In this document: positions 22,211-59,300 of the stretch, one piece after another
Numbering within the stretch: position 1 is the first letter of the stretch
How the letters are laid out: every line of letters starts with the position of its first letter
Source of the DNA: Azolla caroliniana
Taxonomy: Eukaryota; Plantae; Polypodiophyta
Assembly (NCBI GenBank): GCA_043228905.1
Contig: JBHGNT010000020.1
Location: 11,160,001 to 11,224,000, forward strand
Direction of reading: 5' to 3'
Length of the DNA: 64,000 nucleotides
Position numbers and translations under genes: made by a program
Notes under the pieces: model-generated
The model's database searches: none
What the model was told of the DNA's origin: nothing
Seen by the model: only the letters and a program-made list of their open reading frames with translations

Positions 22211-23864
22211 TTTAATGTCTTTCCCTGATCTCTATATCGATTTTTTTGATGGCGGCTCCCCGAGGCTCAACCATGTATGTTCGCGTCATGAGTAGTTTAT
22301 ACACGAAAAATATGTTAACAATAAACTATGTTTCGGTGCCCACATATGTGGTTTTGGCTCTTTAAGTCCTATTACGAGGACCCCGGGGTGCACTTAGACC
22401 TTAAGTCTAAACATGTGTTATAGGCATATGTATCAAGGATGTTGTATGGTCTTGGTCATATTTGAACTCGAGACCTCGAGAACAAATACATTAAACACTT
22501 GAGCCAACCAAGTGAGTTGCTCTTCTCGAATGCTTAATGTTTAATGCGTATAAGAGATATGTGAGGCATTTGATCATATATGTTTTTTTTAAAAGAACAT
22601 ATATTTCAAGGGTCCTTATTTCGCCCTCATTTACCAAACTATGTTGGTACGTTACCTAACCTCAAGTCACGTAATTATGATGGCATACGCCAAAGTGCAA
22701 CCTAATGGTCAAGCCAAATGAGCCCTCGTTTCGTAGTAGGCCCACGTGGCCCATCACATGGTCGTGTCATTACGAATGCTTCTCGTAAGAACGAGCTCAT
22801 GGTGGCATCGTATCCATGTAACGAGGGAGGGATGTTGGATACGTGTGTCATTGGAGCGACCTCACTTGAAGTGGGTCAAGCCCTACGTACTCAACATCAT
22901 TATGGCTATTGGCGTTTCTTTACGTAACGAAATCGAGGTCATCAACGGGGTTGTCAACAATAAAGAATTGTTGAAAAAGGGATGGTGACAACGCCATTCT
23001 CACAAAAATGTGAGGACGGCCACCAACATCCTTTTCCCGACAAGGACAACTTTCGATATAATCACGTAATAACGAATATACACATATGTTTACTTATCAC
23101 ATATATACGATCAAATACGTATATACGTGACCACATATGCCTATATTAACATATCGTTATATTAAATAGCCACAAATGATGTGATCGAGATACGTAATCG
23201 AGGTATATACCTCTACGCACACGAAACATCCACAAATAAGAGATCATCGTAATACGCAATTGAGGTATTGACCTCTTACGCATACAAGACCAAACGCATA
23301 TCCTTTACAACAAATCAAGGTATTAAACTCATACGCAAACGTAACATATGTTTGTGAACGTAATACGTAATTGAGGTATTAACCTCGTACGCATACGACA
23401 CTCATCACATATTATTTATATGTCAAACAAGGTATTGACCTCGTGCACATATGTAAACATTTTAGATAATCAATTAAAGACCACTACAACATCATTGACT
23501 TAATGAAAAAAATTGACATATAAACTAAACACATGATTAAAGATGGGAGAAGAGAGAATAGAAAGAAAAAAAATTATTACGGAAAGAGTTACCAAAGTTC
23601 TTTGTTGATCGTTGTCTGGATCAAGGCCGACCGCACATCGATCGATCACCATCAATCAAACGACAAATGAAAAACAAAGAAACATTAGTACATAAATCTG
23701 ATACCAAATATTAGAGATCTAGGTACTAAAGTAAGCTTAAGATAAGCTTACGTTAGTACCTAGATCCTTTCCCCGACAAGGACAACTTTCGATATAATCA
23801 CGTAATAACGAATATACACATATGTTTACTTATCACATATATACGATCAAATACGTATATACGT

Positions 23865-24656
23865 TGTCGTGAAGAAAACCGTCCATAAGCGGAATCGGCG
23901 CACCAAGGCGTGGGAACCAGTTCTTCACGCGCGCACGCTCCAAGTTGTACATAGAAGCGAATTAGGAGGATAATCGGCAGGAACGGGCCCTAACACAAGT
24001 GGAGACAAAGACCGCGCGAACAGTCTTTTCGGTCGTGCGCGCGAGCTAAGGAACTGTACGAGTCGGCGGCGTAACTACGCGGATGCGTGAAGAACGGAGC
24101 GGATCCCTGTTCGAAAGGGACAGGGAATAAAGCTGACATGACGGCCTGCTCGTCGGCCTATATAAGGAGCAAGAAAGAGCTGTTGCAGGCATCTCGCGCA
24201 GAGAGGACGAAGTGCTGTCGGACCGTTTCTGGACGCTTCTCTCTCTGTTTCCTTCCTTCTTGAGCTCCATAGCTTTCTGTGCAGGGTTCCGAGGAGGCTC
24301 GCGCTGTTTCGAGGAACGCCCGAGTGCTTCCGGCAGCACCTCCGACCTGCTACCCCCTTTGTGCGTCGAAGCGAACAAGCATCGGCATCTGTTCGCCGGC
24401 CTGTTCGGTTGTAACCAACCTGTGCCCCATCGAGGGTTGTAGTCGTGTTAGCCATTTTGTTAATATACGTATTTAGTCATTCGCATTTGTCTGTGTCGGT
24501 GTCTGTTCGCGTTCTCCGTGCTGAAGGGCCGTGTCCCTGTGTATCCCCGGTCCTGCGTAGCAGGTTCTCTCTCTTTCTCCTCCCTGGCTTGCTCTTTGGT
24601 TCGAGACCCCCGCGGTCCCGGCTCGTTCCCACACGCACTTGCGTAATATCTCGACA
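23865..24656 (+). repeat. 5' LTR (792 bp)
   Basis: Direct repeat of 30378-31167. TATA-like ctatataagg near 24159. Confidence 0.95.
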
Positions 24657-24660
24657 TCTT

Positions 24661-24678
24661 TGGTGAACCTGACGTGAA
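24661..24678 (+). promoter_or_regulatory. Primer binding site complementary to tRNA-Trp
   Basis: TGGTGAACCTGACGTGAA versus TGGTGAACCCGACGTGAA, the recalled complement of the plant cytosolic tRNA-Trp 3' end (one mismatch). Also retained at 57232-57249. Confidence 0.8.
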
Positions 24679-24700
24679 GGAGGCGGCAGAAGAGCAGAAG

Positions 24701-26827
24701 ATGAGGGGGTCGGATCTTGCAGAGGCCATGGCTTCGGCCGTGGATCGGATTGTAAACGCGCGCGAGGGCACCGGTGCCCTCGACATAGCTATTGAGGCGG
24801 TCGTTGGCACGATCGGCCGGTTCGATGGGAAGGATGCCACGAAGTATTTGGCGTCCTACGGTGCAGAGATGCTGATGCGGGACATTCCGGAAGAAAGGCG
24901 TCTTGCCGGATTTCCCCGAGTGGCGATGCCGAGCATCCATGCGGAGGTGCTCGAGGTGCGGGCGGAGAGCCGTACCTGGGAGGAGTTCGAAGGTCGGCTC
25001 CTAGAGAAATACGGGCTGGACGACGCGCTCCGGCTTTCGAAGCGAAGGTTCATGGAATGGGTGGAGTCCCCGGGGAAGGGAAGAAACGCGTCGGCACTCC
25101 TCCGGGAGTTCGAGGAAAACTTTGCGCGCCTTTCGACGCTCGACCGAACCATCCTGGACACGAGCCGGGTCTTGCTGTTTGTCAAGTCGGTCGACGAGCG
25201 GGATCGGGAGCAAGTGGGCCTCTTGCTGGAAACCGAAGACGGGCTCACTACCGACTGGGCGGCTGTCAAGAAAGTCTGTGGCCATTTCGACAAACGGCGA
25301 GAATGGGCGGATAACGGGGCAACCGGGTCGGGCTCGGTCGTAGCAAGGAAGCTCGAACCAGCGCCACAGGTGCGAAAGGAAGAGACCCGAGAGTGGTTGG
25401 AAACCGGTTTGGCTTCGACCGGCGTAGTCAGAGGCTCAACCGGAGGAGCGGCGCTGGAGGAATTGACGAGGGCGATAAAGGACCTCCAAATCGCGCAGGC
25501 CCGAAGGGAAGGTGGCGAACCGGCTCGTGACCGACAGCCGGCGGCAGGAAACAGGTGCATGTGGTGCGATGAAGTCGGCCACATTCGGAAGGACTGCGGC
25601 GACTTCGCGGAGGCGCTGAGGAACAGGGTGGTGTACCTGTGGGAAGGACGGGTGCATGCCAGCGACACCCGAAGGGCCCTGAGCCGAAACGACGGGCGAG
25701 GTGGTATGAAAAGGTTGATGGAAGAGGCGGCGGCCCGACACGCGGAAACCGTCCACTACTCGGCGTCGGCCGGCATTCGAGTCGGGGGCGGCGAGGCCCG
25801 AAGGGAAAGCAAAGCCGGATTCTGGCCGACGATGCTGGAAGGCCTTGCCGGTGCAAGGCTTAAAAGGGAGGAATCGGACCGTGCGGAGAAACGGGTACGG
25901 GAGATGACCGGGTGGAGCGACCCGGTCGAGGAAAAGACGGGCTTCGTGGAAGCCGCTTGCCAGAACTACGAGGCTCTGGTAGAAGAGAAGCGGGTGGGGA
26001 AACCCGGGACGACCGGGCCCTCACAACGATACGAGACCCGGTCCGGGCCACGACGGGACGAAGCCGGCGGGGCCGGTACGCAAGATAAACCCCAGAAGGG
26101 CGGGTACCGTCTGGGGACGGAGATAGAAAGGACCACGGACTTACGAAAGGTCCTGGAGGAACGGATCCTCGACAGCAAGGTGGAGCTGTCGTTACGAGAG
26201 GTGCTGGGAATCGCCAAGAAGGAGTTCCACGACTCCATCGTGGACTTGGTGAAACGGAAGAGGTTGTCAACGGAGACAGAACCGGAAAGACCGGTGGAAG
26301 TGCGGACGACGCACCTAGACGACATGACGCTGGGAGACGAGTGGGCGGAAAGCCACTATTCGAGACCACACTGGGCCCGAGCGACCACGGAAACCCCGGT
26401 GAAGATCGGCGATGTCCAGGAACCGGTGATAGCTTTGGTGGACCACGGATCGGAGATCAATTTGATGTCCATGGACTTCTATAAGAAGGGCAAATGGCCG
26501 ATCAACACCAAGCACGGGTGGAAAATAAGGGCAGCAACGCGCGCCACCGAGGAACTGCACAGGGCCTGTCCGAATGTGCGAGTCAAGATCGGCGACGTCA
26601 AGATTGACCAGCACTTCTTTGTGCAGGAGACGTCTTCGCATCCGGTCATACTGGGAGAGCCGTACATCACGGCGGCGCGAATGGAGACCAAGGTGCTGGA
26701 CAATGGTTCGGCCTACGCGAGGGTCAAAAGCCAAGACGGGCGCCATTCAGTCCAGTTTCTGACGGTACGGCTGAACCACGAACGTAACCGCGACTCCCTC
26801 GGTTCCGAAAACCGAGAGGATTTTTAG
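24701..26827 (+). CDS. ORF1: Gag (CCHC knuckle) plus aspartic protease
   Basis: ATG at 24701 (the ORF track starts at GTG 24674, inside the PBS). CMWCDEVGHIRKDC knuckle, ALVDHGSEINLM and VILGEPY. Confidence 0.9.
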   Translation: MRGSDLAEAMASAVDRIVNAREGTGALDIAIEAVVGTIGRFDGKDATKYLASYGAEMLMRDIPEERRLAGFPRVAMPSIHAEVLEVRAESRTWEEFEGRLLEKYGLDDALRLSKRRFMEWVESPGKGRNASALLREFEENFARLSTLDRTILDTSRVLLFVKSVDERDREQVGLLLETEDGLTTDWAAVKKVCGHFDKRREWADNGATGSGSVVARKLEPAPQVRKEETREWLETGLASTGVVRGSTGGAALEELTRAIKDLQIAQARREGGEPARDRQPAAGNRCMWCDEVGHIRKDCGDFAEALRNRVVYLWEGRVHASDTRRALSRNDGRGGMKRLMEEAAARHAETVHYSASAGIRVGGGEARRESKAGFWPTMLEGLAGARLKREESDRAEKRVREMTGWSDPVEEKTGFVEAACQNYEALVEEKRVGKPGTTGPSQRYETRSGPRRDEAGGAGTQDKPQKGGYRLGTEIERTTDLRKVLEERILDSKVELSLREVLGIAKKEFHDSIVDLVKRKRLSTETEPERPVEVRTTHLDDMTLGDEWAESHYSRPHWARATTETPVKIGDVQEPVIALVDHGSEINLMSMDFYKKGKWPINTKHGWKIRAATRATEELHRACPNVRVKIGDVKIDQHFFVQETSSHPVILGEPYITAARMETKVLDNGSAYARVKSQDGRHSVQFLTVRLNHERNRDSLGSENREDF

Positions 26828-26883
26828 AGAGGACTGCCAAGGCGTGGGGCCGCGACAGTCCGGATGCTCCGGGAAAACCCCAC
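26818..26883 (+). promoter_or_regulatory. Predicted -1 programmed ribosomal frameshift signal (slippery heptamer plus pseudoknot)
   Basis: G GAT TTT TAG in the ORF1 frame. The -1 frame is open into ORF2. Stems GGACTG/CAGTCC and GTGGGG/CCCCAC. Conserved at 55038-55105 (-). Confidence 0.75.
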
Positions 26884-29800
26884 ATCTGTACGATAAAACC
26901 GTGTACAATAGGTAGGAAATTTTGCTTCTCCGACAGCGGAGCATGTACGATGGTCGGCATCGCCAGCCGAGAGAAAACAAAGACGGAGGGGAGACTTCGA
27001 GCGTGCGGAGTTCTCGGCCCTGACGAAGAAATCAACGGAGCCGTGGAGGCAGTCTCCTTCGACGACACCTTGGGAATGCTGGGGAAGGTAGTCGAAGAAG
27101 ACCTTAACGAAGACCGGACGATACCGGTATGTTCCGAAGAAATGTACGAAGTCATCGCGGACTTCGGTCGAGGGCTCGAGTCGGAACGGACGGCCCGAGT
27201 TAGCACCAAGTACAAGACTGTGGACCGGAAGGTGAGGCCAGTTGCGGCGCCCTTACCGGAGGGCAGCGAGTCGCGAATCAAAGGGGTTGCATCGGACCCC
27301 AGCTTACGAGATCCGGCCTGCATAGGACACACCTTCACCAACGAGACGCTCCGGGAGCTCAAAATCGGTGGAGGCGGGTTCCTACTACCGGCGGAGGAAG
27401 ACCGGTTTCGGAGAATGCTCGGAAGGCACGGGAAAGCCTTCGCATTCTCACCGGAGGAAATCGGGTGCGTAGACCCGACGATCGTAGAGCCGATGGTGAT
27501 ATTCACGGTACCGCATGTACCGTGGAATCTCAAGCCAATTCCGGTTCCGAGAGCTCACATCCCGAAGTTGATGGAGCTGTTGAAGCAGAAAGTTGATATG
27601 GGCATTCTCGAGCCGTCGAGCGCCCCGTATTCAAACCGATGGTTTACCGTACCAAAGAAAAACGGATCGTTGCGCTTCATTCAGGACCTGCAGCCGGTCA
27701 ATAGAGTGACCATTCGGAACGCAGGGATCGGACCGACCATAGACGAGTTCGCGGAGGCCTTCGCCGGAAGGTCGATTTACTCGGTCGGTGATCTATACTC
27801 AGGGTACGACCAGTTCCAGCTAGCCGTGGAGAGCAGAGACATTATGACGATGCGAACTCCCCTCGGCCTAGTGCGGATGTGTACGCTGCCGCAAGGAGGG
27901 ACCAACTCGGTGGCCCACATGGTGAATGTAATGAACAAGGTGCTGAGGGACTGCATCCCGGACATCACCATGCCGTTTCTAGACGACATCCCGATCAAGG
28001 GATGCCCGGTAGAAGAGAAGGACGAGACGATCGGGCCAGACGGATGCCGGCGATTCGTGATGACGCACATCGACGACTGCGAGAAGGTGCTGCAAAGGCT
28101 AGAGGATGCGAGGCTCACCTTCTCGGGGGAGAAATCAGCCTTCGGGCAGTCGGAAATCATGGTGGTCGGACACTTATGTGGGCCATATGGCCGGAAACCG
28201 TCTCCGGCAAAGGTAGAAGCCATCTCCGCGATGAAGCCCGACTGCAGCTCGGTCACGGAAGTACGGAGATTCCTGGGGGCATGCGCATTCTACCACATAT
28301 GGATCCCGCATTACGCCCACGTTGCGGAGCCGCTATACGGATTATTGAAGAAAGGGCGAAGATTCGAATGGCTAGACAAGCACACGGAGTCGGTCCGGAA
28401 GCTGAAGGAGGCTCTTTCGGCAGCACCGGCGCTCCGAAAGGCCGTCTACAGGAAGGGCACCCCAGTGTACATAACGGTTGACACGAGTCCGACCGGAATC
28501 GGGTGGGTCGTCAACCAAGAAGACGAGGACGGCAATCGGTTTCCGATCCGATTCGGCGCGAAGGTCCTCAGTGAGCGGCAGCGAGGATACGCCCAGGTTA
28601 AACGCGAACTCTGGGGTATCGTTTCGGCGGTGAAGGCCGACAAGGACTATCTGATCGGGACAGAGGTAATCATAGAGACGGATTGCATGCCGATTCTCGG
28701 CATGGTTTTCGGATGCGCGACGCCGGACCTGGCAATGCTCAGGTGGATAGCGTACATCAAGTCCCTGGACCCGGAAATACGACACATTTCCGGGAAAGAC
28801 AACGCCATAGCCGACATGCTTTCAAGGGCGAGATTCGATGACGAGGGCGGCATGGTTTCGGAGGACGAAGAGGTCGGCGTGGACTTCTTCGAGACTGCGT
28901 TTGTAACAACCGACGGAACAAGCACTCCGGCGCTTAGCGACTTCGACGCGAGCAAGTACGACGGGGAGTGGCTGCAGATCGGTGGGTTTTTGAAGACAAT
29001 GACGCCCGATGCGTCATGGACGAAGGACGAGGCCAACCGGATCCGGAAGAAAGCGTACCGGTTCTTTCTCCGGGATGGATACTTGTGGAAGCACCCGAAG
29101 AAGAGGAACGGCGTCCCGCTCCGGGTGGTGGCAATGAAGGAAGATCAGGAGGAGCTGCTAGCGGCCTACCACGACAGCCCTTGGGCTGGACACCGTGGAA
29201 CATGGGCTACGTTTGAGAAACTGAAGGGGAAGTATTGGTGGCCGGGGCAGTACCAGGACGTGCATCGGTTCGTGACAACTTGCGAGAGCTGTCAGATGCA
29301 CTCCGTAGTCCGACATCGAGACAAGCTTCACCCTACGTACCCTCCGGCCATCCATTTCAAATGGATGGTAGATCTGGTAACGATGCCAATGGGAGTAGGA
29401 CAGATGCGGTACCTGGTCCTAGCGCGGGAGGATCTGACGAACCAGGTGGAAGGTCGGGCCCTTCCGAACAAAACGACCGCGGCCGTATGTCGGTTCCTAA
29501 TCGAGGACGTGATATGCCGGTACGGGTGCGTCAGGAAGATCGTGGCTGACCGAGGGGAGTTGGACGCCGAAGAAGCCGCGGAGCTGTTCGACCGGCTGGG
29601 AGTCAAGCTCTCGCTCACCACTGCGTACAATCCGGAGGCGAATGGAAAGGTGGAGCGCGGACACGGACCGATCGTCAAGGCGTTGGTTCGGGCATGTGGA
29701 GGCCGAGTCGGTAACTGGCCGCGGCTGCTACCTTATGCTTTGTGGGCAGACCGGACCACGCACAGTTCGGTAACCGGGTACATGCCGACGGAGCTTATGT

Positions 29801-30306
29801 TCGGCCAGAAGCCGATCATGCCGATGGAACGGACGATCTCCTCATGGGCAACGGTCGATTGGAGGGACGAGATGAGCCGGGAGGAGTTGTTGGCCGCGCG
29901 TATACGACAGCTCGAGCGGAGACCGGAGGACGTGGAACTGGCTGCGGAGAAGCTCCGAGTGGCGAGGACGAAGAACAAAGCCAGGTTCGACCGAACGCAC
30001 CGGCTCCGACCGAAGAAAATCGAAGAAGGTGACTGGGTGCTTGTCTACGACAGCAGCCTCGACAACCAGCACCGAGCTACACGGAAGTTCGCACGAAGGT
30101 GGTTCGGGCCTTACGTGGTACGGAGCGCCAATGACAACGGGACATATCACCTGGCGGAACTCGACGACACGAGAATGGCGATACCGGTTGCAGGGAAGCG
30201 GATCAAAGCGTTCAAGAAGCGACACGACGACGAGCCAGACCCGGCTCTCCTAGTCAGCAGTGACGAACGATCCGAAAACGAGGAAGAACCGACGGGCGAG
30301 GAATGA
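26821..30306 (+). CDS. ORF2: RT, RNase H and integrase (no chromodomain)
   Basis: DLYSGYDQF, LPQGGTNS, FLDDIPIKG, VDTSP, ETDC, ADMLSR, HHCC, WMVDL/VADRG/KVERG and FGPY motifs. The frame is open from 26821; the first ATG after the ORF1 stop is 26950. Confidence 0.93.
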   Translation, partial: FLERTAKAWGRDSPDAPGKPHICTIKPCTIGRKFCFSDSGACTMVGIASREKTKTEGRLRACGVLGPDEEINGAVEAVSFDDTLGMLGKVVEEDLNEDRTIPVCSEEMYEVIADFGRGLESERTARVSTKYKTVDRKVRPVAAPLPEGSESRIKGVASDPSLRDPACIGHTFTNETLRELKIGGGGFLLPAEEDRFRRMLGRHGKAFAFSPEEIGCVDPTIVEPMVIFTVPHVPWNLKPIPVPRAHIPKLMELLKQKVDMGILEPSSAPYSNRWFTVPKKNGSLRFIQDLQPVNRVTIRNAGIGPTIDEFAEAFAGRSIYSVGDLYSGYDQFQLAVESRDIMTMRTPLGLVRMCTLPQGGTNSVAHMVNVMNKVLRDCIPDITMPFLDDIPIKGCPVEEKDETIGPDGCRRFVMTHIDDCEKVLQRLEDARLTFSGEKSAFGQSEIMVVGHLCGPYGRKPSPAKVEAISAMKPDCSSVTEVRRFLGACAFYHIWIPHYAHVAEPLYGLLKKGRRFEWLDKHTESVRKLKEALSAAPALRKAVYRKGTPVYITVDTSPTGIGWVVNQEDEDGNRFPIRFGAKVLSERQRGYAQVKRELWGIVSAVKADKDYLIGTEVIIETDCMPILGMVFGCATPDLAMLRWIAYIKSLDPEIRHISGKDNAIADMLSRARFDDEGGMVSEDEEVGVDFFETAFVTTDGTSTPALSDFDASKYDGEWLQIGGFLKTMTPDASWTKDEANRIRKKAYRFFLRDGYLWKHPKKRNGVPLRVVAMKEDQEELLAAYHDSPWAGHRGTWATFEKLKGKYWWPGQYQDVHRFVTTCESCQMHSVVRHRDKLHPTYPPAIHFKWMVDLVTMPMGVGQMRYLVLAREDLTNQVEGRALPNKTTAAVCRFLIEDVICRYGCVRKIVADRGELDAEEAAELFDRLGVKLSLTTAYNPEANGKVERGHGPIVKALVRACGGRVGNWPRLLPYALWADRTTHSSVTGYMPTELMFGQKPIMPMERTISSWATVDWRDEMSREELLAARIRQLERRPEDVELAAEKLRVARTKNKARFDRTHRLRPKKIEEGDWVLVYDSSLDNQHRATRKFARRWFGPYVVRSANDNGTYHLAELDDTRMAIPVAGKRIKAFKKRHDDEPDPALLVSSDERSENEEEPTGEE

Positions 30307-30377
30307 AGACGGGCCGGTTTTCTCCGTCCCAACTCTCTTGGCGCATACCGGAGGATGCGCGGTTAGGTGGGGGCGGA

Positions 30378-31167
30378 TGTCGTGAAGAAAACCGTCCATA
30401 AGCGGAATCGGCGCACCAAGGCGTGGGAACCGGTTCTTCACGCGCGCACGCTCCAAGTTGTACATAGAAGCGAATTAGGAGGATAATCGGCAGGAACGGG
30501 CCCTAACACAAGTGGAGACAAAGACCGCGCGAACAGTCTTTTCGGTCGCGCGCGCGAGCTAAGGAACTGTACGAGTCGGCGGCGTAACTACGCGGATGCG
30601 TGAAGAACGGAGCGGATCCCTGTTCGAAAGGGACAGGGAATAAAGCTGACATGACGGCCTGCTCGTCGGCCTATATAAGGAGCAGGAAAGAGCTGTTGCA
30701 GGCATCTCGCGCAGAGAGGACGAAGTGCTGTCGGACCGTTTCTGGACGCTTCTCTCTCTGTTTCCTTCCTTCTTGAGCTCCATAGCTTTCTGTGCAGGGT
30801 TCCGAGGAGGCTCGCGCTGTTTCGAGGAACGCCAGTGCTTCCGGCAGCACCTCCGACCTGCTACCCCCTTTGTGCGTCGAAGCGAACAAGCATCGGCATC
30901 TGTTCGCCGGCTTGTTCGGTTGTAACCAACCTGTGCCCCATCGAGGGTTGTAGTCGTGTTAGCCATTTTGTTAATATACGTATTTAGTCATTCGCATCTG
31001 TCTGTGTCGGTGTCTGTTCGCGTTCTCCGTGCTGAAGGGCCGTGTCCCTGTGTATCCCCGGTCCTGCGTAGCAGGTTCTCTCTCTTTCTCCTCCCTCGCT
31101 TGCTCTTTGGTTCGAGACCCCCGCGGTCCCGCCTCGTTCCCACACGCACTTGCGTAATATCTCGACA
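30378..31167 (+). repeat. 3' LTR (790 bp)
   Basis: Preceded by PPT-like AGGTGGGGGCGGA at 30365-30377. Confidence 0.95.
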
Positions 31168-31749
31168 ACGTGACCACATATGCCTATATTAACATATCGT
31201 TATATTAAATAGCCACAAATGATGTGATCGAGATACGTAATCGAGGTATATACCTCTACGCACACGAAACATCCACAAATAAGAGATCATCGTAATACAC
31301 AATTGAGGTATTGACCTCTTACGCATACAAGACCAAACGCATATCCTTTACAACAAATCAAGGTATTAAACTCATACGCAAATGTAACATATGTTCGTGA
31401 ACGTAATACGTAATTGAGGTATTAACCTCGTACGCATACGACACTCATCACATATTATTTATATGTCAAACAAGGTATTGACCTCGTGCACATATGTAAA
31501 CGTTTTAGATAATCAATTAAAGACCACTACAACATCATTGACTTAATGAAAAAAATTGACATATAAACTAAACACATGATTAGATGGGAGAAGAGAGAAT
31601 AGAAAGAAAAAAAATTATTACGGAAAGAGTTACCAAAGTTCTTTGTTGATCGTTGTCTGGATCAAGGCCGACCGCACATCGATCGATCACCATCAATCAA
31701 ACGACAAATGAAAAACAAAGAAACATTAGTACATAAATCTGATACCAAA

Positions 31750-32204
31750 TATTAGAGATCTAGGTACTAAAGTAAGCTTAAGATAAGGATAAAGTAATGA
31801 TAGATAGAAAGGAGAAAGAGAAAGAAGGGTGCCGATCCACACGACCACCCCCGAGCGAAGGGATCGAGACGGACTCGAGCCTCGATCGACGTCCCATACC
31901 ACCGCCGTGGCGTCGAGTCGTACCTGGTGCTGGCGCGCTCGCTACAAGAGTTGACCCACCACAAGAGCAGAGTCTCGATGTAGTCAAAAGATGATCAAAT
32001 GAGGGTAGTTAGGCCTCTTATTTATAGCGATACCCAAGGCCCCCAGGCAAGTTCACACTTGACCTAATGGGTTGTCTCAATCCTGAGGATTAAAAGTAAT
32101 CCTCCCCTTCTTTACACTCTCGTTTAACCCTCACACCTATCCACGTGTATCGAATACTACGGTAAATTCTCACCACGGGATATTAAATGGTCATGCACGT
32201 AACA
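31750..32204 (-). repeat. 5' LTR of the chromovirus
   Basis: Reads TGTTAC...CTAATA on the minus strand, followed by TT and the PBS. Confidence 0.93.
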
Positions 32205-32209
32205 AGAAC

Positions 32210-34380: not shown

Positions 34381-34788
34381 GAACAAGCTCAACCGGATCC
34401 GGACCAGCTGAATAAGCGAGTTGGATCGGTGTCCGGATAACATCCGGAAACTAGAGCCGGATCGGATTGTAACCGGTAGGCCATTAGAGGCCGACGAATC
34501 TAGCCTAGTACGTAGGCATATTTCTAGGAGTCAGTGTTAGTCGCTTGTATGAGCATTGAAGTACTTGTCAATACTTTTGTTTGTCCTTTTCAAGGACTTG
34601 CATAAAAGTGCTCAGTGAGCACATTGTATACACAAAGTGTTATTATTTTGAATTAAGTTTATGCTATTATGCTGTCTATGTCTCTCTTGTGAACTCTGTA
34701 TTCTAAGCTTCCATTAAACCTATGTTTATTCTCTATTGCTATCCGGTGTAACCGGTTTTGTCAAAGCTTCCACATATTAACTTTCACA
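34381..34788 (+). repeat. 3' LTR of the old Copia (5' tip lost)
   Basis: Homologous to 45418-45848. Ends ...ctttcaCA. Confidence 0.75.
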
Positions 34789-35026: not shown

Positions 35027-36950
35027 TGTTGATTTGCCAACAGGCGACAGTTGTAACCGATAGACATAATAAGTCGGACGTTCAACTCCGAGCGTTCAGT
35101 CAAGAAGATTCTGGTGGAGAGATGGGTTGGTCGACCCTAGTTCTACACTTAGAAATAGGTGTATAGATATTAGTTCTTACGATTAGACTTATGATCTTGA
35201 TCGATTGCTAGTATAATATAGTTGGTGCAGTAGAGAACATTCGACATCGTAGATATATAGTAGAACAGAACATAATAGTTAACACAGGAACACTCCAACT
35301 ATCAAAAACCATATTAAAACCAAAACAAAATGATAGAAATACAATGCTCTCGGTTCCTTTTTAGAGGCGACCTGAGAGTCTCTCTCCAAGATTTACACTT
35401 GCCTTGTTCAACAAGAACCTACAATTATACCAAAACCGTTCTATTTCCTAATATTACTCTAATTTTTTATACTTGGCAAATTTATATTTAAAATTATATA
35501 TGAATTGTGTCCTTTCATATTTTGACTACTGTTCATACTTTTGGACTTCGATTCTGACTTCTTTCCACAGTCGTCCAACTCTGGGTAGTTGACTAGCTGA
35601 CACATGGCACACCTGTGGGACAGTGCCTTGCACGGTCAAACACCACCCTTTTACTCATGGTCATCCCCTTCATAGTTGTCACCGACTTGCGCGTCTCCAA
35701 TCAGGTCGTCGTTGTTGATGTCACTTGTGTCCTTGTTCAGTATGTCGAATAGGTTGAGGTCTTCTTCTTCTTTAACTTCTACGTCAGTCGGATTTGATTG
35801 GTTTTCTGTGTTAAGCTCTTCCTCCGACCGCAATGTTGATTCCGCCTCAGCCTCCTCCTGCTTGATTTCTCTGTCCTGCTTGTCGTCGCTGATTGGTACT
35901 GTGTGGCCAGATTCCACCTGAGTCGGTTCGGTGTCGTCATTGGCCCTTAATTCTCTTGTATGTTGATGATGTTCCTTCTTATAGGCGTTGAGTTGCACCG
36001 TTGTGGCCATCTGTTGGTCATCATATTCCTCCATGAGCTTGGTGATCTCTTCCCTGTGGCTTGTGGAAAGCTCATATATGTCCTTGGCAAGCTCTTCTTC
36101 TACTGTGGCGATTGTTGCTTCGTCCATCTTGAAGAAGCGTTGACCTTGCTTCTTTGTGTTCTCATGGTTGACTCTTAATAATTGTAATTTCGCAGCTTGG
36201 GCCGATCACATCTTCCAGTCTTTGTCCAGGGATTCGATAACCATCTGGCGTGCGTTGGTCTTATGCACAAATAAGATGCAGCACACTTTTTCCTCTCCCA
36301 TGCTTACTCTGTATTGCACAATGGCCAGTTCCTTGTGCATTTCGGCAAGTCGAACTTCTGCCGAACCTTGGTCAAATTGCAATTTTTCTTCTACCACTAT
36401 TAATGCCAGCCGCTTATGTTCATACTTTGCCACCACTTGCTCATACTTCGTGGTCATTTCCAACTTCTCTAGGTCGAGCTTACCACAGTGTTCCAAAAAA
36501 TGTCTCCTGCATTTTAATATACACAGTGTTGTTGTAAATGCCGATTAAGGGCATTTATTTGTCCATCCTTGGCATTCAGCAGGGCCCCGAGTTCGGTTTT
36601 TGCTAACTCGATTCAATCCTTCATTTTCTACACTTTTGTTTCGGCTTTCTCTGCCCTTCGATTGGTGCGTTCAGCTTCTTTCTCCATTGCTCGTAGCTAA
36701 TCCCATAATTGTTTTTCTTGTACATATGGGATTCCCGCATAGTCACAGGTTTGGAGACGTTCGTCCGGTTCTTTTAACTTTGCTTCCGCCTGTTGGAGTT
36801 GGGCCGACAATTCTTCATTGGTCTTCTTGGCTGCCAACTACTCCGTGTGCATCAGGTCTAAGGCCTTTGTCGCCCTCTTGCCAACTTCTGCCATTTCTTT
36901 TGTTGTCCTAATGGTCTTCGCTAACTCTTGGTGTACTTCAACATTATGCT
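35027..36950 (-). mobile_element. Element D remnant: C-terminal extra ORF plus probable 3' LTR, inserted in the integrase fragment
   Basis: QAAKLQ..ENTKKQGQRFFKMDEATIA matches copies A and C. Shares the aaggcactgtcccac motif. An LTR-like end ..AACA at 35027 interrupts the integrase frame. Confidence 0.6.
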
Positions 36951-43975: not shown

Positions 43976-43993
43976 AGATTTGATCTTCCTCGA

Positions 43994-44640: not shown

Positions 44641-44689
44641 TATTTGAAGGCTCTAAAGGTGTACTCACATGTTGCATTGTCGACTGATT

Positions 44690-48800: not shown

Positions 48801-49308
48801 CAATGAGCTCGAATGGGACGAGGAGCTGAAGCTACAAAAGATCGGCCGGAAGCGCGTAACCAAAACCCGTTGTCGTGTTATTCTACACGCGTAGGAGAAA
48901 CCAAGGCGGAACCGCGGGGGCCCTGAACCAGGGAATAACCGAACAGAGGGAGGAGCGACACAAAACCACGGCTGAGCCGTGCACACAAATACACAGAGAA
49001 CTCACAACGAAGATCGAACAACGAATAAGGAAAATATATATTTATGATCAAGATTACAGCCGGCTAGCCGATAAGCGTCAACGCTCTAACACCAACTCAC
49101 ACAACACACACAGACAACGCGAGATGGAGCCTCTACCGGAAGCACTCGGGCTTTCCACGAAGCAAAGGCAGCCTCCCAAAACCTGTAGAGAACAATGAAA
49201 GACAAAGGAGAAGAGCTCGGTCCCACTCCGACAACACTTCATCCTTCACAACGTGATCCCTTCTCTGTCTTCTTCCCTTCCCTTTTATAGTCCATCGGGA
49301 GGGACCGT

Positions 49309-50353
49309 TGTCGTGAAGATCCGTCACTACGTGTGGATCGTGAGGCAGAACCGTCGGGGTTCTGGACCGAAAGGACTCGAAGTTGGTGCTAGCTTTAACG
49401 AGAAAGGATTTAAGATAGATTGAAAGAGAGAGAGATTGAGATAAGATAGAACTCTTGATTTTAGATTGAGAGAGAGATTAAGATTGAACTCTTGACTTTA
49501 GATTTGAAGAACAAGGTATATCATCATAAGGATAACGAATTTTCTTCTTAATATTAATTTTGATATAAAGTACAAAGCTCTTGATAAGAATTTTACCTTC
49601 CAAAATCCCCCTCTTTTGTAAATGCCCTCATGCATTTGAGGGTTCAAGACATGCATAAAATGAATGTTTGCCATTTGGCGCTCATGTATTACATATGGTG
49701 CATAATAACCACATCACTCATTTTAGCTCTCATGTATGAGAATTTACATACAAAGTTACAATGATAAAAACATCATTTCAAGAAAATGTCTTGGTTTAGT
49801 TGTAAGCCTATAGACTCTCAACTTGGAGGTGCCAGGTTCAAATTCACACTTGCACTCCTTGTGTATACATATATTTATTTATTTATTTATATATCTATCC
49901 GATCGCCGGATGACGTCGGACCGCCGGTTACGTTGCCGATCTGGTTTTGGTTGGGCAAAACCTTTGCAAGTAGCTAAGCCACACCCATTCATCCAATAGC
50001 TTAGTTCAAGTCACCTAGAACTCTCTATGCTCCACACATAGACACAAAGATAATAGCTTTTGCTCTACCTTATATATGGTAAGATCCTTATTTCCTATCT
50101 ATGTGGGATATCTCACAGTTTTATTTTTCTCTTCTTCCTTCTCATACTTCACTCCCACATAACTTGTCACTTAGATGTCCGTTTTTTTATGTGGTAAAGC
50201 ACATTTGAAAGCTCTTGAAGACCTCCATCTTTTTGTACTAAGATATTAAACATATTTAAAATAGTATTTTCACTATTATTGTTTTATATGATTCATACTC
50301 AATTTCGTATGTTTTATGCGATTTTCACACCATTGCCGAAAATCTTCACGACA
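49309..50353. mobile_element. About 1-kb solo-LTR/TIR-like insert in the 3' LTR
   Basis: TGTCGTGAAGAT...ATCTTCACGACA. TSD CCGT/CTAT (the second copy has decayed). The empty site is visible in the partner LTR at about 57689. Confidence 0.85.
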
Positions 50354-52398
50354 CTATTATACCTTGGTCACATCAGCTTTATTCTCTGTCCCTTTGGACA
50401 GAGATACACATCGATTCCCCAAACAATAAATCTCCCCTACCTAGTATGTTTACATCAGCCGACCTATCCCCAATTATGTACTCCTCATCAATCCTTGTGC
50501 CCGCATGTAAGGGCCAGTTCATGCTCTCTATTTACCGATTCCTCCTAGGGATGGTTTTCCCCACGACATCCGCCCCCACCTAACCGCGCATCCATCAGTA
50601 TGCGCCAAAATAGATCTTTGCTGGAGAAGACCGACCCGCGCTTATCTTACGATCTCTGGATCGCCATCTGCTCCGAATCGGTCGTCGTCGTTATCCATGT
50701 CCTCTAGGTCTAGTTCGTCCTCGTGCTACTTATTGAACGCCTTGGTCCTCTTCCCGACCACCGACACAGTTATTTTTGTTCTGTCGATCTCCGCGAGATG
50801 GTAGGTGTCGTTGTAGTTGGCGCTTGTCATCTCCTCGCAAATTTCCGCATCGCCTTGTGCTGGATGTCGAGGTTGTTGTCGTAGACTAAAAGCCAATCGC
50901 CTTCCTCAATTTTCTTCGGTCGTAGTCAGTGAGTTCAGTCGAATCGCCCCTTGTTCTTTGTCCTTCCCGCACGCAGCTTCACCGTTGCTCATTCCACGTC
51001 CTCCGGTCTTCGCTCAAGCTGTCGGATTCGCATCACTAACAGCTCCTCCCGGCTCATCTCGTCTCTCCAGTCCACCGCGGCCCACGAGAAGATCGTTCGC
51101 TCCATCGGCATGATCGGCTTCTGCCCGTACATCAACTCCGCCAGCATGAACCCGGTTACCAACTGTGCGTAGTTCGGCCCGCCCACAACACGTAAGGTAG
51201 GAGCCGCGGCCAGTTCCCGACTTCACCTTCACATGCCCGTACCAATGCCTTTACGATTGGCCCGTGTCCGCGCTCCACCCTCCCGTTTGCCTCTGGATTG
51301 TACGCCGTGGTGAGCGAAAGTTTGACCCCTAACTGATCAAACAGTTCTTCGGCCTCTTGTGCATCCAGTTCTCCACAGTCCGCTACGATCTTCCCTACGC
51401 ACCCATACCGACATACCACCTCTTCGATCAGGAACTAGCACACGGCCGCGGTCGTCTTGTTTGATAACGCTCGGCCCTCCACCTGGTTCATCAAGTACTC
51501 TCGTGCTAGCACCAGGTATCGCATCTACCCTACCCCCATCGACATCGTCACCAGATCCACCATCCACTTGAAGTGGACGGTCGGCGGGTAAGTCGGGTGT
51601 AGCTCGTCCCGATGTCAGACTATGGAATGCATCTGACAGCTTTCACAAGTCGTTACGAACCAATGCACGTCTTGGTATAGTCCCAGCCACCAGTACTTCT
51701 CCTTCAGCTTCTCGAACGTTCCCCATGTCCCCCGATGCCCGGCCCAAAGACTCTCATGGTACGCCGTCAGTAATGCTTCCTGCTCCTCCTTCCTCGCCAC
51801 TACCCGGAGTGGGACGTCATCTCGCTTCTTCAAGTGCTTCCATATGCTTCCGTCCCGTAGGAAGAATTAGTATGCTTTCTTCCGGATCCGGTTAGCCTCC
51901 TCCTTTGTCCACGTCGTGTCCGACGTCATCGTTTTCAGGAACCCACCGATCTAGAGCCACTCCCCGTCATACTTGCTCTCGTCAAACTCGTTAAGCACCG
52001 GAGTGCTCCCCTTTCTCATCGTCACGTAAGTCGTCTCGAAGAAGTCCACAACGACTTCCTCTTCCTTTGAAACCATGTCGCCCTCGTCATCAAACCTCGC
52101 TCTCGAAAGCATGTCGACCATGGTGTTGTCCTTCCCGGAGATGTGCCATATCTCCTGATTTAGGGACTTAATGTACGCTATCCACCTAAGCATTGCCAGG
52201 TCCGGCATTGTGCATCCAGAAACCATACCAAGAACCAGTAGGCAATCTATCTCTATTATTACCTCTGTCCCTATTAGGTAGTCTTTGTCGGCCTTAACCG
52301 CCGAAACGATAGCCTAGAGTTCGCGTTTAACCTGGGCGTATCCTCGTTGTCGCTCGTAAGTACCTTCGCACCGAATTGGATGGGGAACCTCGTGCCGT

Positions 52399-53382
52399 TG
52401 TCGTGAAGATCCGTCACTAAGCGCGGATCGCGGGGCAGAACTGGCGGGGTTCTGGACCGAAAGGATTCAAAGTTGGCACAAACTTTAGCGAGAAAGTATT
52501 TAAGATAATTTGAGAGAGATTGATATGGCGAAAGAGAGAGAAGCAATTGACTTTAGATTTAAGAAACAAGTTACACGATCAATTCGATAACAAATTTTCT
52601 TCTCTTAAATTCGTATATAAAAAAAAGTACCCTCCCTTTCTCTTTTTCATCTCCTCTTTTATAGATGCTCTCATGCATATGATGCATGTGATGCATGCTT
52701 GCCATTTGGCGCTCATGCATTACATGTGATGCATGAGAATCATGCTAATCAATCAAGGTCTCAATGTATGAGAATTTACATGTAAAATTATAATGATAAA
52801 AATATTATTTTAAGAAAAATGTATTAGCTTAGTGGTAAGCCTATAGAATCTCAACTTGGAGGTCCAAGGTTCAAATCCACACTTGCACTCTTTGTGAATA
52901 TATATATGTGTATACATATGTTTATTTATTTATTTATATATCTATCCGGTCGCTAGATGCCGCCGGTTCGCCGCCAAAACTTATATAGTTAGGCCACACT
53001 CATTCATCATATTAACTTTGTTCAAGTCACCTTGAACTTTCTATGCTCCACACCTAAACACAAACATAATAGCTTTTTATCTACTTTATATATTGTAGGG
53101 TCCTTGTTTGTCCTGTCTATGTGGGATATCTCATAGTTTTATTTTTCTCTTTTTCCTTCTCATACTTCACTCCCACATAACTTGTCACTTAGATGTCTGT
53201 TTTTTAAGTGGAAAAGCACATTTGAAAGCTCTTGAAGACCTCCATCTTTTTGTACCTAGATATTAAACTTATACAAAATATTATCTTCACTATTATTGTT
53301 TTGTTTTTCTCGTGAGAAGAGCCACACTCGATCTCGAATGTTCCTTACAATTTCCACACTATCGCCGAAGATCTTCACGACA
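52399..53382. mobile_element. Second copy of the ~1-kb insert, within RNase H
   Basis: TGTCGTGAAGATC...GATCTTCACGACA. TSD CCGT at 52395-52398 and 53383-53386. The host frame EDENG|TRFP rejoins. Confidence 0.9.
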
Positions 53383-56300
53383 CCGTTCTCATCCTCCTAG
53401 TTGATCACCCATCCGATTCTAGTCGGACTCGTCTCTACAGTTACATGAATCGGCACATGTTTACCATAGACCGCTTTCCGGAGTGCTAGTGTTGCGGCAA
53501 GCGCTTCTTTCATTTTTCAGACCAACTATGCATGCTCCCTACCCCACTCGAACTTGTGCCCTTTCTTCAACAACCCGTAGAGCAGCTCCACAATATGGGT
53601 GTAATGCAGGATCCAAATGTGGTAGAACACTCAAGCTCCCAAGAACCTCTGGACTTCTGTAACCGACCTGCAGTCTTCCTTCATCGCGGAGATAGCTTCT
53701 ACCTTAGCCGGAGACGGTTTCCAGCCATAAGGCCCGCACAAGTGTCCGACGACCATGATTTCCGACTGTCCGAAAGCCGATTTCTCCCCAAAGAAGGTGA
53801 GTCGCGCGCCTTTCAGCTTCCGTAGCACCTTCTCGCAGTCTCCGATGTGGTCCGAGAAGAATTTCCGACACCTGTCCGATCTGATCGTTTTGTCCTTATC
53901 CTCCACCGAACATCCTTTGATCGGAATGTCATCCAAAAACGGCATGGTGATGTCTGAGATGCAGTCCCTTAGCACCTTATTCATCGTATTCACCATGTGT
54001 GCTATCGAGTTTGTCCCCCCTTGAGGAAGGCTACACATCCGCACTAGGCAGAGAGGAGTCCGCATTGTCGTAATATCTCAGCTCTCTACGGCTAGTTGGA
54101 ATTGGTCATACCCCGAGTAGAAATCCCCGACCGAGTAAATTGACCTTCCGGTGAAGGCCTCCGCGAACTCGTCAATGGTCGATCCGATTCCTACGTTCTG
54201 AATGGTCACCTTGTTGACCGATTGCAGGTTTTGAATAAAGCACAACGTGTCGTTCCTCTTTGGCACGGTAAACCACCGATTCGAGTATGGGGCACTCGAC
54301 AGTTCGAGGATGCCCATCTCCACCTTCTACTTCAGCAATTCCATCAGCTTTGGGATGTGAGCTCTGGGTACTGGAATCGGTTTGAGATTCCACGATACAT
54401 CCAATACCATGAAGATAACCATCAACTCAATGACCGTCAGGTCTACGCACCCGATCTCTTCCAGCGAGAATGCGAAGGCCTTCCCGTGCCTCCCGAGGAT
54501 TCCCCGAAACCGTTCCTCCTCCGCTGGCAGTAGAAAGCCACCCCCACCGACCTTGAGCTCCCGTAGCATTGTGTTGGTGAACCGGTGTCCTATGCCGGCC
54601 GGATCCCGTAGACTTGGGTCCGACGCGACCCCTTTCATCCGTACCTTGCTGCCCTCTGTCAAGGGTGCCGCGACTGGCCTCACCTTCCGGTCCACAGTCT
54701 TGTACCTTGTATCCACACGAGCCATCCGATCTGACTCGACCCCTTCCCCAAAGTCGGCGATGACTTCGTACATCCGTTCCGAACTAACCGGAAATTTCTG
54801 GTCTTCACTGGGGTCTTCTTCGAGCACGTTCCTCAGATCTCCCAAGGTGTCGTTGAAAGAGACCGCCTCCACGGCATTGCCTATCACTTCGTCGGGGCCT
54901 AGAACTCTGCATGCCCTAAGACGTTCCTCCACCCGCTTCTTCTCCCAGCCGCTAATGCCGGTTATTGTACAGTCTCTGTTGTCGGAGAACCAACATTTCC
55001 TGTCTATAGTACAGGGTTTCCTTCCTATGGTACACTTGTGGGGTTTTTCTGGGGTGTCCAAACTATCGTTGCCCCACGCCTTGATAGCCCTCTCTAAAAA
55101 TCCCCTCGACCTTCACCGCTGAAGGTCTCGCGGTTGCACTCATGGTTCGGTCACACCGTTAGAAATTGGACGGAGTGCCGCCCATCTTGGCTCTTCACTC
55201 GGGCATACGTCGAACCATTATCCAGCACCTTTGTCTCCATGTGTCCCGCCGTGATGTATGGTTCGTCGAGGATCACTGGGTGCGAGGATGTCTCCTGCAC
55301 GAAGAAGTGGTGATCAATCTCGACATCGCTGATCTTTACTCGTACATTTGGGCAGGCCCCGTGTAGTTCCTTTGTGGCGCGCGTCGTTGCTCGTATTTTC
55401 ACCCATGCTTGGTGTTGATTGGTCACTTACCCTTCTTGTAGAAGTCCATGGACATCAGGTTGATCTTTGAACCGTGGTCTACCAACGCCACCACCGGCTC
55501 CTGGACGTCTCCGATCCGAACGAGGGACTTCGTAGTAGCTCTAGCCCAATGTAGCCTCGAATAGTGGCTTTCCGCCAACTCGTCCTCCAAGGCCATATCT
55601 TCCAGGTGCGTCGTTCGCACCTACACTGGCTTCTCCGGCTCCAGTTCGGTCGAAAGTCGTTTCCGCTTCACCAAGTCCACAATGAGGTTGTGGAACTCCT
55701 TCTTGGCGATCCCGAGCACTTCCCTTAATAACAGCTCCACCTTGTTGTCAAGGATTTGTTCCTCCAGGACCTTTCGTAGATCCATCGTCCTTTCTATCTT
55801 GGTGCTCAGTCGGTAACCGGCCTTCTTTGTCTTGTCTGGTGCGTCGGTGGTATCGGCACCATTCTGCTTCGACCCGAACCGGGTCTCGTACCATTGTGAG
55901 GGTCCGGCCCCTCCGGCTTTTCCCGCACGCTTGTCCTCTACCAAAACCTCGTAGTTCTGGCACACGGCTTCCACGAAGCCAGTCTTTTCCTCGACCGGGT
56001 CGCTCCACCTGGTGACCTCCCGGACCCGTCTTTCCGCACGGTCTGCTTCCTCCTTCCTCAACCGCACGTCGGCGAGGCCTTCTAGCACCAACGGCCAGAA
56101 CCCGGAGTTCTTCGTCTTCCGGCCTTCGTCACTCCTGACCCGGATTCCTACCGACGCCGAGTAGTGGATGGTCTACGCATGGCGCGCCGTCGCTTCTTCC
56201 ATCAGCCTTTTCATTCCTCCTCGTCCGATATTCAGCTCCAGGGCTCTCCGGGTCTCGCTAGTGTGCATTCGCCCGTTCCATAGGTACACCACGTTAGCCC

Positions 56301-59300
56301 TTATCGCTTCTGCGAAGTCCACGCAGTCCTTCCAGATGTGACCGACTGCGTCACACCACAAGCACCAATGCCCATCCGGAGGCCTCCGGTCGCGAAACTG
56401 CTCGTCGCCGTCCCTCCTTGCCTGTGCAATCTGGAGGTCTTATACCATCTGCATCAGCTCTTCTAGAGCCGCTCATCCGGACGGGCCCTTGACCACGTTG
56501 GTCAAAGTCAAGCCTGTCTCAAGCCAATCCTAGGTTTCCTCCCTTCCCGCCAGCGGGGGTCCCTCGAGCTTTCATGCTACAACCGCTCCTGCCCCCAATG
56601 AGCCCTTGTCGACCCACTCACGCCATTTGTCAAAATGGCCACAGACTCTCTTTACCACGACCCAGTCAACCGTTAGCCCATCATCCGTCTCCAATAGGAG
56701 ACCCACCTGATCTCGATCCCGCGCATCCACGGATTTGACAAACAACAAGACGCGGCTCGTGTCCAGCACTACTCTGTCCAATGCCGAGAGCCGTGCGAAG
56801 CATTCTTCAAACTCCCGGAGAAGCGTCGACGCATTCATCCCCTTTCCAAGGGTCTCCACCCAATCCATGAAGTCCCGCTTTGATAACCGAAGCGCGTCAT
56901 CAAGCCCATACTTCTCAAGGAGCTGACCTTCGAATTCTTCCCAGGTCCGGCACTCAACCTGCACCTCAAGCACCTCCGCGTGGATGCCCGGCATTGCCAC
57001 CCGAGGGAATCCGGCCAGCCGCCTATCCTCCGGAATGTCCCTCATTACCATTTCGGCTCGGTAGGCCTCTAGATAGCTCGTGGCGTCCTTCCCACCGAAC
57101 CGGCCTATTGTACCAACAATCGCTTCGAGGGCGCATGTGCCCTCACGCGCACTCACTATCCGATCAACGGCAGAAGCCATGGCTTCAACAAGCTCCGATC
57201 CCCTCATCTTTTGATTCCTCTACTGCCTTGTTTCATGTCGGGTTTACCAAATTAATGTTGTGTTATTCTGCACGCACAGGAGAAACCAAGGCGAGACTGC
57301 GAGGGCCCTGAACCGGGGAATAACCGAACAGAGGGAGGAGCGACACAAAACCATGGCCGAGCCGCGCACACAAATACACAGAGAACTCACAACGAAGATC
57401 GAACAATGAATAAGGCAAATATATATTTATGATCAAGATTACAACCGGCTAGCCGGTGAGCGTCAACGCTCTAACACCAACTCACACAACGCACACGGAC
57501 AATGCGAGATGGAGCCTTTGCTGAAGCACTCGGGCTTTCCACGAAGCAGAGGCAGCCTCCCAAAACCTGTAGAGAACGATGAAAGACAGAGGAGAAGAGC
57601 TTGGTCCCAGTCCGACAGCACTTCGTCCTTCACAACGTGATCCCTTCTCTGTCTTCTTCCCTTCCCTTTTATAGGCCGCCGGTAGGGACCGTTACACCCT
57701 GGTCACATCACCTTTATTTTCTGTCCCTTCGAACAGAGATACGCATCGATTCCTAGACAATAAATCTTCCCTACCTAGTATGTTTACATCAGCCGACCTA
57801 TCCCCAATTATGTACTCCTCATCAATACTTGTGCCCGCGTGTAAGGGCTAGTTCACGCTCTCTATTCACTGATTCCTCCTAGGGACGGTTTTCTCCACGA
57901 CACCGTCGTGCTCGGATCGAGCTACCGAACCTCAACAGGGTCTTGGTCAAGGTTTACCGCGAATTGGAGAAAGCAACTTGCGTTGCCAAAGACATGGCAG
58001 TCAGCAGCAGACAAGCACGCAAACAGGCCAAAACGGCTACCGACTTGTGGTAGGATTCGAAGAGCCGACTCACTGATCTGGGACAACGGCTCAAAGAATC
58101 CGGGCCAACCAATCTTCTCACCCTACCAACCCCTTCTTCCAATCATGTGGATGTGTGCACACAGACCGAAGACACAACCGACTCGGTGTCGGACACGGAG
58201 ACGGTCAAGGACCCAACACCCAATTCCAAGGAGGATATTGTGGCGCAATCGACAATGGCCGAGAAAGCAAAAGAGCATTATGAAGCGGCTAAAGAAGAAG
58301 CTGACCAACTCTGTGCGCAGGCAGCAAAACACAATGTAGAACTCCAACAATTGTTCGACGGACAGACGGCTCAGCTTCAAGAGACGGAAAGGAAAGTCGT
58401 CGCATCTCTCAAGGCCGCTCATGACCTCGCCACAGCAAAAATAGCCGAAGTTGAGGAAGGGCATCAATGGGCATACAACCGACAATCTGAAGAACTCCTA
58501 ACTCTACAAAACAAACTCTCAAAACTTCATATCCGCTCCAGTCAGCACCTTCAAATGTTAGACGTAGTTGAGCAGGAGAAACATACATTGTCAGAGTCCC
58601 TCCACCAATTGCAAATCTCCAGGACGCTCGAACTCGAACAGCAGTGGGATCAATATATGCAAGAGTTAGCCGATAATTCGGATCGCCTCCTCTGACGCTA
58701 CGACCTACATACGAAGGAAAATGAGAAAAAGCTCGTCGAAGTTGTCGTATCGTGCAAGATCCTCAAAGCCAAGCTCGAACGGAACATCACGACGACTAAA
58801 GAAGAACTCGACACCCTCCATGCCAAATATGAAATGGGCGAAACCAAAGTGAAGGCACTAGTGGCAAAGCATCTGCTGAAGCTGAATCAAAAAGTTGAAG
58901 AAGCACTCGCTCGTGGATGGAATGAATGGGTACCTCAAGCAGCCGAGTTACACGTCTTCCGAGCATATGCCAAAAATCAGAAAAAAGAGGGTCGTGGTTT
59001 TTACAAGATGGACGAGAATAGCATTCAGATCCTTCGTGAAGACCTCACCGAGAAATTCCAAGCCCTGGCCCGCACACACACCACGGCCATCAGGAATCTC
59101 CTCAAAGAATTTAACAATAATCAACTATTGCTCACGATTGAAACAGAAGGCTATCTGAACGCCTCCAAGCTAAGAAAGAAGTTGAAGCCGCAACACAGGC
59201 CTTAACAGGCCACATGACTGAAGAAGCAGTCCAGCAGCAGAACGAAGACGCAGCGTAGCCTAGGGGCTGACAGAAGAAGAGGGGAGGTGCCTGAGCCAAA

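What the first reader, a model, noticed from the sequence alone, without database searches (positions are those of the whole stretch)
23861..57906. CpG-centred 4-bp target site shared by all four insertions of the TGTCG..CGACA group
Seen: the TSDs are ACGT (23861/31168), CCGT (48867/57903), CCGT (49305, partner decayed to CTAT) and CCGT (52395/53383). All read xCGT on the plus strand. The inner LTR borders (gcgga|TGTCG and CGACA|tctt) show that CGT is not part of the LTR. The Copia and the chromovirus here have unrelated 5-bp TSDs. Inference: this chromodomain-less integrase has sequence preference for CpG, possibly methylated CpG. That would steer it into other CpG-rich transposons, and all four hosts here are retroelements.
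Basis: partly seen in the sequence, partly recalled or inferred. Interest (0 to 1): 0.8.

Follow-up and report, generated by a model that had tools for sequence, protein, structure and literature searches.

The report
Known CG-targeting bryophyte Gypsy retrotransposon (Phygy)
A family of jumping genes here inserts almost only at four-base sites with CG in the middle, a real pattern that is already published for the moss Phygy lineage to which these elements likely belong; whether the CG must be methylated remains untested.

Summary
All four junction pairs are as described, and each has a copy without the insertion that fits a single site. An independent test agrees: 75 of 82 distinct outer LTR junctions of the same LTR family in metagenome contigs read NCGN, and 4 more read as one-step decays, against a CG background of 3.3%. 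The best site is the palindrome ACGT (31); TCGA is never used; ACGG and CCGT occur equally often, so 'xCGT on the plus strand' is not directional. It is not new. Neumann et al. 2019 report a 4-bp NCGN duplication in 100% of 186 Phygy elements. The anatomy fits Phygy: Gypsy order, no chromodomain, no extra RNase H, no extra ORF. Placement against reference Phygy proteins could not be run. The likely mechanism is local target reading by the integrase at a sharply bent CpG step. Methyl-CpG sensing is untested and has weak evidence against it. Nesting in transposons is common (at least 29 of 83 flanks) but not exclusive.

The parts
23865..31167 (+). Element A, full-length Phygy-like Ty3/Gypsy (7303 bp), LTRs 23865-24656 and 30378-31167, 99.1% identical
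23861..23864 (+). Left target duplication of A, ACGT
31168..31171 (+). Right target duplication of A, ACGT
23125..23128 (+). Empty copy of A's site (one ACGT) in a tandem duplicate of the host chromovirus leader
24661..24678 (+). Primer binding site of A, conserved in 10 related loci; tRNA-Trp identity is recalled, not shown by a tool
   Evidence: failed tests 49, 53, 57
24647..26827 (+). gag-protease frame of A (stop to stop; DUF4100 hit)
26788..30306 (+). RT-RNase H-integrase frame of A, in the -1 frame overlapping gag-protease; no chromodomain, no second RNase H
30361..30377 (+). Polypurine tract abutting the 3' LTR, shared with B and with C-type elements
48871..57902 (-). Element B, decayed relative of A (about 77% nucleotide identity inside; 6995 bp without the nested LTRs; LTRs 92% identical)
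48867..48870 (+). Left duplication of B, CCGT (ACGG in element orientation)
57903..57906 (+). Right duplication of B, CCGT
49309..50353 (-). C1, solo LTR of a sister family in B's 3' LTR; duplication CCGT (49305) / CTAT (50354, both strands of the CpG changed)
57689..57692 (+). Empty copy of C1's site (one CCGT) in B's other LTR
52399..53382 (-). C2, solo LTR of the same sister family in B's RNase H region; duplication CCGT 52395/53383
16891..32204 (-). Host of A: chromodomain Gypsy with 5-bp duplication AGAAC (16886/32205)
11478..16800 (+). Copia used as control, 5-bp duplication GACAG (11473/16801)
45926..59205 (+). Host of B: another Gypsy, integrase at about 45926-47067 followed by a long extra ORF that B interrupts

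Best explanation
The four insertions are Ty3/Gypsy LTR retrotransposons, likely of the bryophyte Phygy lineage, that duplicate a 4-bp site centred on CG, best ACGT, likely because their integrase reads the target locally. Shown: the site bias, its symmetry, the exclusion of T at the first base, and the anatomy. Inferred: the integrase multimer cuts 4 bp apart and bends the target sharply at the central step, as foamy-virus integrase does; a CpG step suits that bend; base contacts narrow the choice from any pyrimidine-purine step to CG, because the TA step is never used. Retroelements are frequent hosts likely because they are abundant, comparatively CG-rich and tolerate insertions, not because a tethering domain aims at them.
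For: 75 of 82 distinct 5' outer junctions are NCGN and 4 more are CA/TG; background CG 0.033; binomial about 1e-102. 17 of 21 outer 3' ends have CG at bases 2-3, which with the 5' side fixes a 4-bp site. ACGT 31 observed against 4.6 expected, TCGA 0 against 9.8. T at the first base 1 of 82 against 35% of background NCG, matching the near-universal retroviral avoidance of T there (PMC4422553). 4-bp-duplicating retroviruses favour a central pyrimidine-purine step with a severe bend (PMC4422553). Best solved relatives of the integrase are foamy-virus and Ty3 integrases by sequence and fold. Phygy is described with NCGN in 100% of 186 elements, a tRNA-Trp primer and no extra domains. Named relatives are liverwort proteins, for example 64-65% over pol.
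Against: No reference Phygy protein could be obtained, so clade placement is untested. A and B (7303 and 6995 bp) fall below the published Phygy range of 7656-9968 bp. The primer tRNA was not confirmed by a tool. The metagenome junctions are one-sided: of 11 loci with both outer ends only 3 match exactly and 1 as a decay, the rest probably being assembly chimeras. No base-reading residue was shown.
Confidence: 0.82

Rival explanations
1. The integrase needs or strongly prefers 5-methyl-CpG and so homes to silenced DNA without a chromodomain.
For: The genome shows a methylation footprint: 33 of 52 differences between B's LTRs are C>T in CG or CHG. All four hosts in the window and at least 29 of 83 outside flanks are retroelement DNA. 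Phygy-labelled domains are enriched at centromeres in a liverwort (PMC12885004 passage). A 1992 paper title on CpG methylation and retroviral integration appears in a reference list (paper not read).
Against: Two flanks are host-gene-like (L049 glycosyltransferase, L116 methyltransferase), and moss genes are mostly unmethylated (recalled); both could be pseudogenes. Drosophila ZAM-group elements use CGCG in a genome with negligible CpG methylation (recalled). The integrase shows only zinc-binding and core Pfam hits and a short acidic tail.
Confidence: 0.12
2. The elements are a sister lineage of Phygy, or TatI, with a shared or convergent CG preference, and not Phygy proper.
For: Size is below the published range. 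TatI also has a 4-bp duplication and a Trp primer. Relatives extend to fern and fungal proteins.
Against: TatI always has an extra RNase H, which is absent here. NCGN is reported only for Phygy among the plant lineages surveyed.
Confidence: 0.12
3. The bias is only DNA bendability at any pyrimidine-purine step.
For: Central pyrimidine-purine preference is general for 4-bp integrases (PMC4422553).
Against: Centres are CG 75, CA 2, TG 2, TA 0 of 82, in flanks that are 57% A+T. Retroviral enrichment averages only 63% over random.
Confidence: 0.04
4. Chance, or mis-set LTR ends that include CGT.
For: Only four sites lie in the window, three of them in one nest.
Against: Inner borders lack CGT in A, in B and in 39 polypurine-side junctions. 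The outer four bases vary around a fixed CG.
Confidence: 0.01

Closest known systems
Phygy lineage (non-chromovirus Ty3/Gypsy of Physcomitrium patens; Neumann et al. 2019, PMC6317226)
   Same: 4-bp NCGN duplication; no chromodomain, extra RNase H or extra ORF; coding region fills the interior; nesting in chromoviruses is reported (PMC6911290).
   Different: Slightly shorter than the published range. The finer consensus (ACGT best, no T at the first base, symmetric) and the -1 overlap between protease and RT are not given in the passages and table read. The per-element table could not be read and may hold the finer consensus.
Drosophila errantiviruses of the ZAM subgroup (PMC5408687)
   Same: Gypsy-type integrase with a palindromic 4-letter target, CGCG among them.
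   Different: Insect lineage with an alternating consensus; NCGN here.
Prototype foamy virus and gammaretrovirus integrases (PMC4422553)
   Same: 4-bp duplication, central pyrimidine-purine step, T avoided at the joining base; best structural relatives.
   Different: Their preference is weak. The residue that aligns to Ala188/Ser119 is small in retroviruses but Glu here, in a conserved DRGE motif.
TatI and Selgy (PMC6317226)
   Same: 4-bp duplication; TatI has a Trp primer.
   Different: TatI has an extra RNase H; Selgy uses tRNA-Ala and is about 5 kb; neither is listed with NCGN.

Membership tests
Ty3/Gypsy LTR retrotransposon | LTRs with TG..CA ends, PBS, polypurine tract, order gag-PR-RT-RH-INT | tested here: met
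Phygy | Clusters with P. patens Phygy RT/RH/INT references (the primary definition) | not testable with these tools
   Reference FASTA too large to read; no Physcomitrium-named protein among the listed hits; the tree has no Phygy reference
Phygy | 4-bp duplication with NCGN | tested here: met
   4 of 4 in the window (one partner decayed); 75 of 82 and 17 of 21 outside
Phygy | No chromodomain, no extra RNase H, no extra ORF | tested here: met
   pol stop lies about 70 bp before the 3' LTR
Phygy | PBS complementary to tRNA-Trp (81% of members) | tested here: inconclusive
   PBS conserved in 10 loci; Trp identity recalled; no tRNA gene found in 31 of 31 viral-contig matches and no paper hit
Phygy | Size 7656-9968 bp (descriptive range from one species, not a criterion) | tested here: not met
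   7303 and 6995 bp
TatI | Additional archaeal-type RNase H in 100% of members | tested here: not met
   One RNase H region only, residues 528-657
Chromovirus | Chromodomain after the integrase | tested here: not met
   No Chromo hit in A, whereas the host element has one

The most novel reading that the evidence does not exclude
Phygy-type integrases read the methyl mark itself: the catalytic core (candidate: the lineage-wide DRGE motif where retroviruses have a small residue) or the C-terminal loop selects 5mCpG in ACGT, giving a tether-free way to home to silenced DNA in bryophytes and a naturally CpG-specific integrase.
Probability: 0.12. Interest if true: 0.7.

Novelty: already known. Interest (0 to 1): 0.22.

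Why it matters
As seen, it confirms in another sequence set a published exception among plant LTR retrotransposons and sharpens the motif (ACGT best, T excluded, symmetric). It offers a young, apparently intact element (A: both frames open, LTRs 99.1% identical) for asking how an integrase reaches more than 90% CpG specificity and whether methylation matters. None of four searches listed a paper whose title or abstract start addresses that test for Phygy; most were seen as listings only, and subscription papers are missing from the library.

Tried and rejected
No whole genome is held, so no genome-wide census in this organism. Laying run contigs on A's LTR showed a multi-copy, diverse family in four runs but did not print the flanks that run off the ends, so a junction census in runs of the same organism remains open, for A and for the C type. 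PBS identity: 31 viral-contig matches held no tRNA gene; no tRNA or Rfam hit in the window; no paper hit. Cluster look-up gave no organism names. The Atlas search of the host's extra ORF gave only generic coiled-coil look-alikes with low recognition. The idea that C1 and C2 are DNA-transposon-like elements (12-13 bp inverted ends) was dropped because locus L009 shows a C-type start behind the same polypurine tract. An exact C-type motif had 0 matches in 121 loci. A first regex for LTR 3' ends was too narrow and was replaced by a profile. The integrase model (pLDDT 82, pTM 0.55) matched integrases only and named no base contact. The integrase-core tree has long-branch warnings and was used only to see that A and B lie close together and far from the window's other Gypsies. 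Earlier scan notes: nothing found. PMC7466625 passages had no TSD data.

Full report
Observation. The window is a nest of LTR retrotransposons. Each site has an internal control. A's host leader is tandemly duplicated (99.0% identical) and the uninterrupted copy has one ACGT. B's other LTR has one CCGT where C1 sits, so CTAT is best read as a CpG changed on both strands. A has one ACGG where C2 sits in B. B's flanks are colinear with a paralog at the window start. The Copia and the chromovirus have 5-bp duplications GACAG and AGAAC. Four CG-centred sites by chance: about 9e-6.

Independent test. No genome is held, so I scanned metagenome contigs with the 20 bases that begin the LTRs of both A and B; the pattern contains no flank. 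They gave 124 matches: 39 behind the polypurine tract and 85 outer. Three were dropped as sharing a flank (L016, L060, L098), leaving 82. 75 of 82 are NCGN, 2 are CA-centred, 2 TG-centred and 3 other; one of the three (L063) looks like a chance match outside the family. Background CG in the flanks is 0.033. On the 3' side, a profile built from 14 LTR ends found 33 hits: 11 before a PBS or its first bases, 1 low-scoring false hit, and 21 outer ends, of which 17 have CG at bases 2-3, 2 are CA/TG and 2 other. CG at -3/-2 on one side and +2/+3 on the other fits only a 4-bp site. Caveats: most loci come from a small set of related assemblies of unnamed hosts; exact matching favours young LTRs; and only 3 of 11 loci with both outer ends match exactly (1 more as a decay), which points to assembly chimeras across LTRs.

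Shape of the motif. With both orientations pooled, ACGT is seen 31 times (4.6 expected), ACGG/CCGT 20 (7.6), ACGC/GCGT 11 (6.6), TCGA 0 (9.8), ACGA/TCGT 1 (14.1). ACGG and CCGT are 10 and 10, so the preference is symmetric.

What the elements are. A encodes gag-protease and, in an overlapping -1 frame, RT, RNase H and integrase, with no chromodomain or second RNase H. C1 and C2 are solo LTRs of a sister family: L009 shows a C-type start behind the same polypurine tract, and a C-type insertion in L030 has GCGT. Named relatives are Riccia proteins, and for the integrase also Ceratopteris and a fungus, so the host is inferred to be a bryophyte. Neumann et al. 2019 (PMC6317226; passages, supplementary file 5 whole; files 1 and 3 unreadable) state that Phygy elements are the exception among plant LTR retrotransposons in preferring NCGN: 186 elements, 4 bp in 100%, tRNA-Trp primer in 81%, no extra domains. 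Jedlicka et al. 2019 (PMC6911290; passages, section 7) find mostly 4-bp duplications for Phygy and Phygy-in-Tcn1 as the commonest repeated nesting in P. patens. Membership is therefore likely but not formally shown: the defining tree could not be built, the primer tRNA is recalled, and the sizes are a little short.

Mechanism. Serrao et al. 2015 (PMC4422553; passages) describe 4-bp integrases as bending the target sharply at a central pyrimidine-purine step and avoiding T at the joining base through a methyl clash. Both features are seen here (T first in 1 of 82 against 35% of background NCG). Foamy-virus and Ty3 integrases are the best solved relatives. Bending alone does not explain CG 75 against TA 0, so base reading is inferred. 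One lead: the position that aligns to foamy Ala188 is Glu, conserved in at least 80% of 97 aligned integrases. In retroviruses that position contacts bases outside the duplication, so its role here is a guess.

Methylation and steering. The genome bears a CG/CHG decay footprint, but that shows methylation after insertion. Of 83 outer flanks, 27 match the window (25 in annotated retroelements, 2 in an unannotated part). Of 145 ORFs from the 55 remaining flanks, four flanks hit retroelement families and two hit host-type genes. Flanks with repeat evidence have a median of 4.8 CG per 100 (n=33), those without 1.7 (n=47), so the element also finds CpGs in CpG-poor DNA. Drosophila ZAM-group elements use CGCG (PMC5408687 passages), where methylation is negligible (recalled). 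A liverwort paper reports Phygy domains among those enriched at centromeres (PMC12885004 passages). None of this decides the matter; I put methyl sensing at about 0.12.

Verdict. Real, strong, and already published for the lineage to which these elements likely belong. The added value is a sharper motif and a young element suited to the open methylation test. Interest 0.22.

Noticed in passing
window 26788-26827 and 55097-55112: A and B both keep a GGATTTT run just before the gag-protease stop, with pol in the -1 frame: a likely ribosomal frameshift after the protease rather than after gag.
   Followed up: partly
L058 (3' LTR end) against window 31168; L014 and L060: Different LTR subfamilies abut the same ACGT in diverged copies of a host repeat, suggesting reuse of sites; assembly chimeras are not excluded. 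The host leader has 13 ACGT in 1515 bp.
   Followed up: partly
window 23022-23746 / 23758-31787: A 725-bp tandem duplication of the chromovirus leader (99% identical) that includes its PBS and about 40 bp of LTR end, with a short inverted junction at 23716-23766.
   Followed up: partly
window 16891 and 31750: Both LTRs of the chromovirus end in TA, not CA, on the element strand, and its PBS looks tRNA-Met-type (recalled), unlike most Tcn1.
   Followed up: no
window 47565-59205; paralogs near 922-3448 and 35654-36460: A second Gypsy family has a long extra ORF after the integrase with a coiled-coil-like part and no Pfam hit; three copies lie in the window.
   Followed up: partly
window 17880-18651 and 43994-44513: Near-perfect tandem repeats of 257 bp (three copies, inside the chromovirus integrase) and 261 bp (two copies, 100% identical); real duplications or assembly artefacts.
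   Followed up: no
L049 and L116: Family insertions next to or into host-type coding sequence (UDP-glycosyltransferase; Methyltransf_29).
   Followed up: partly
P0369, P0376, P0382: A fungal integrase (41% identity) and fern integrases (56%) are among the hits; P0369 and P0382 show the same DRGE motif. Their target sites would test CG bias in other methylation settings.
   Followed up: no
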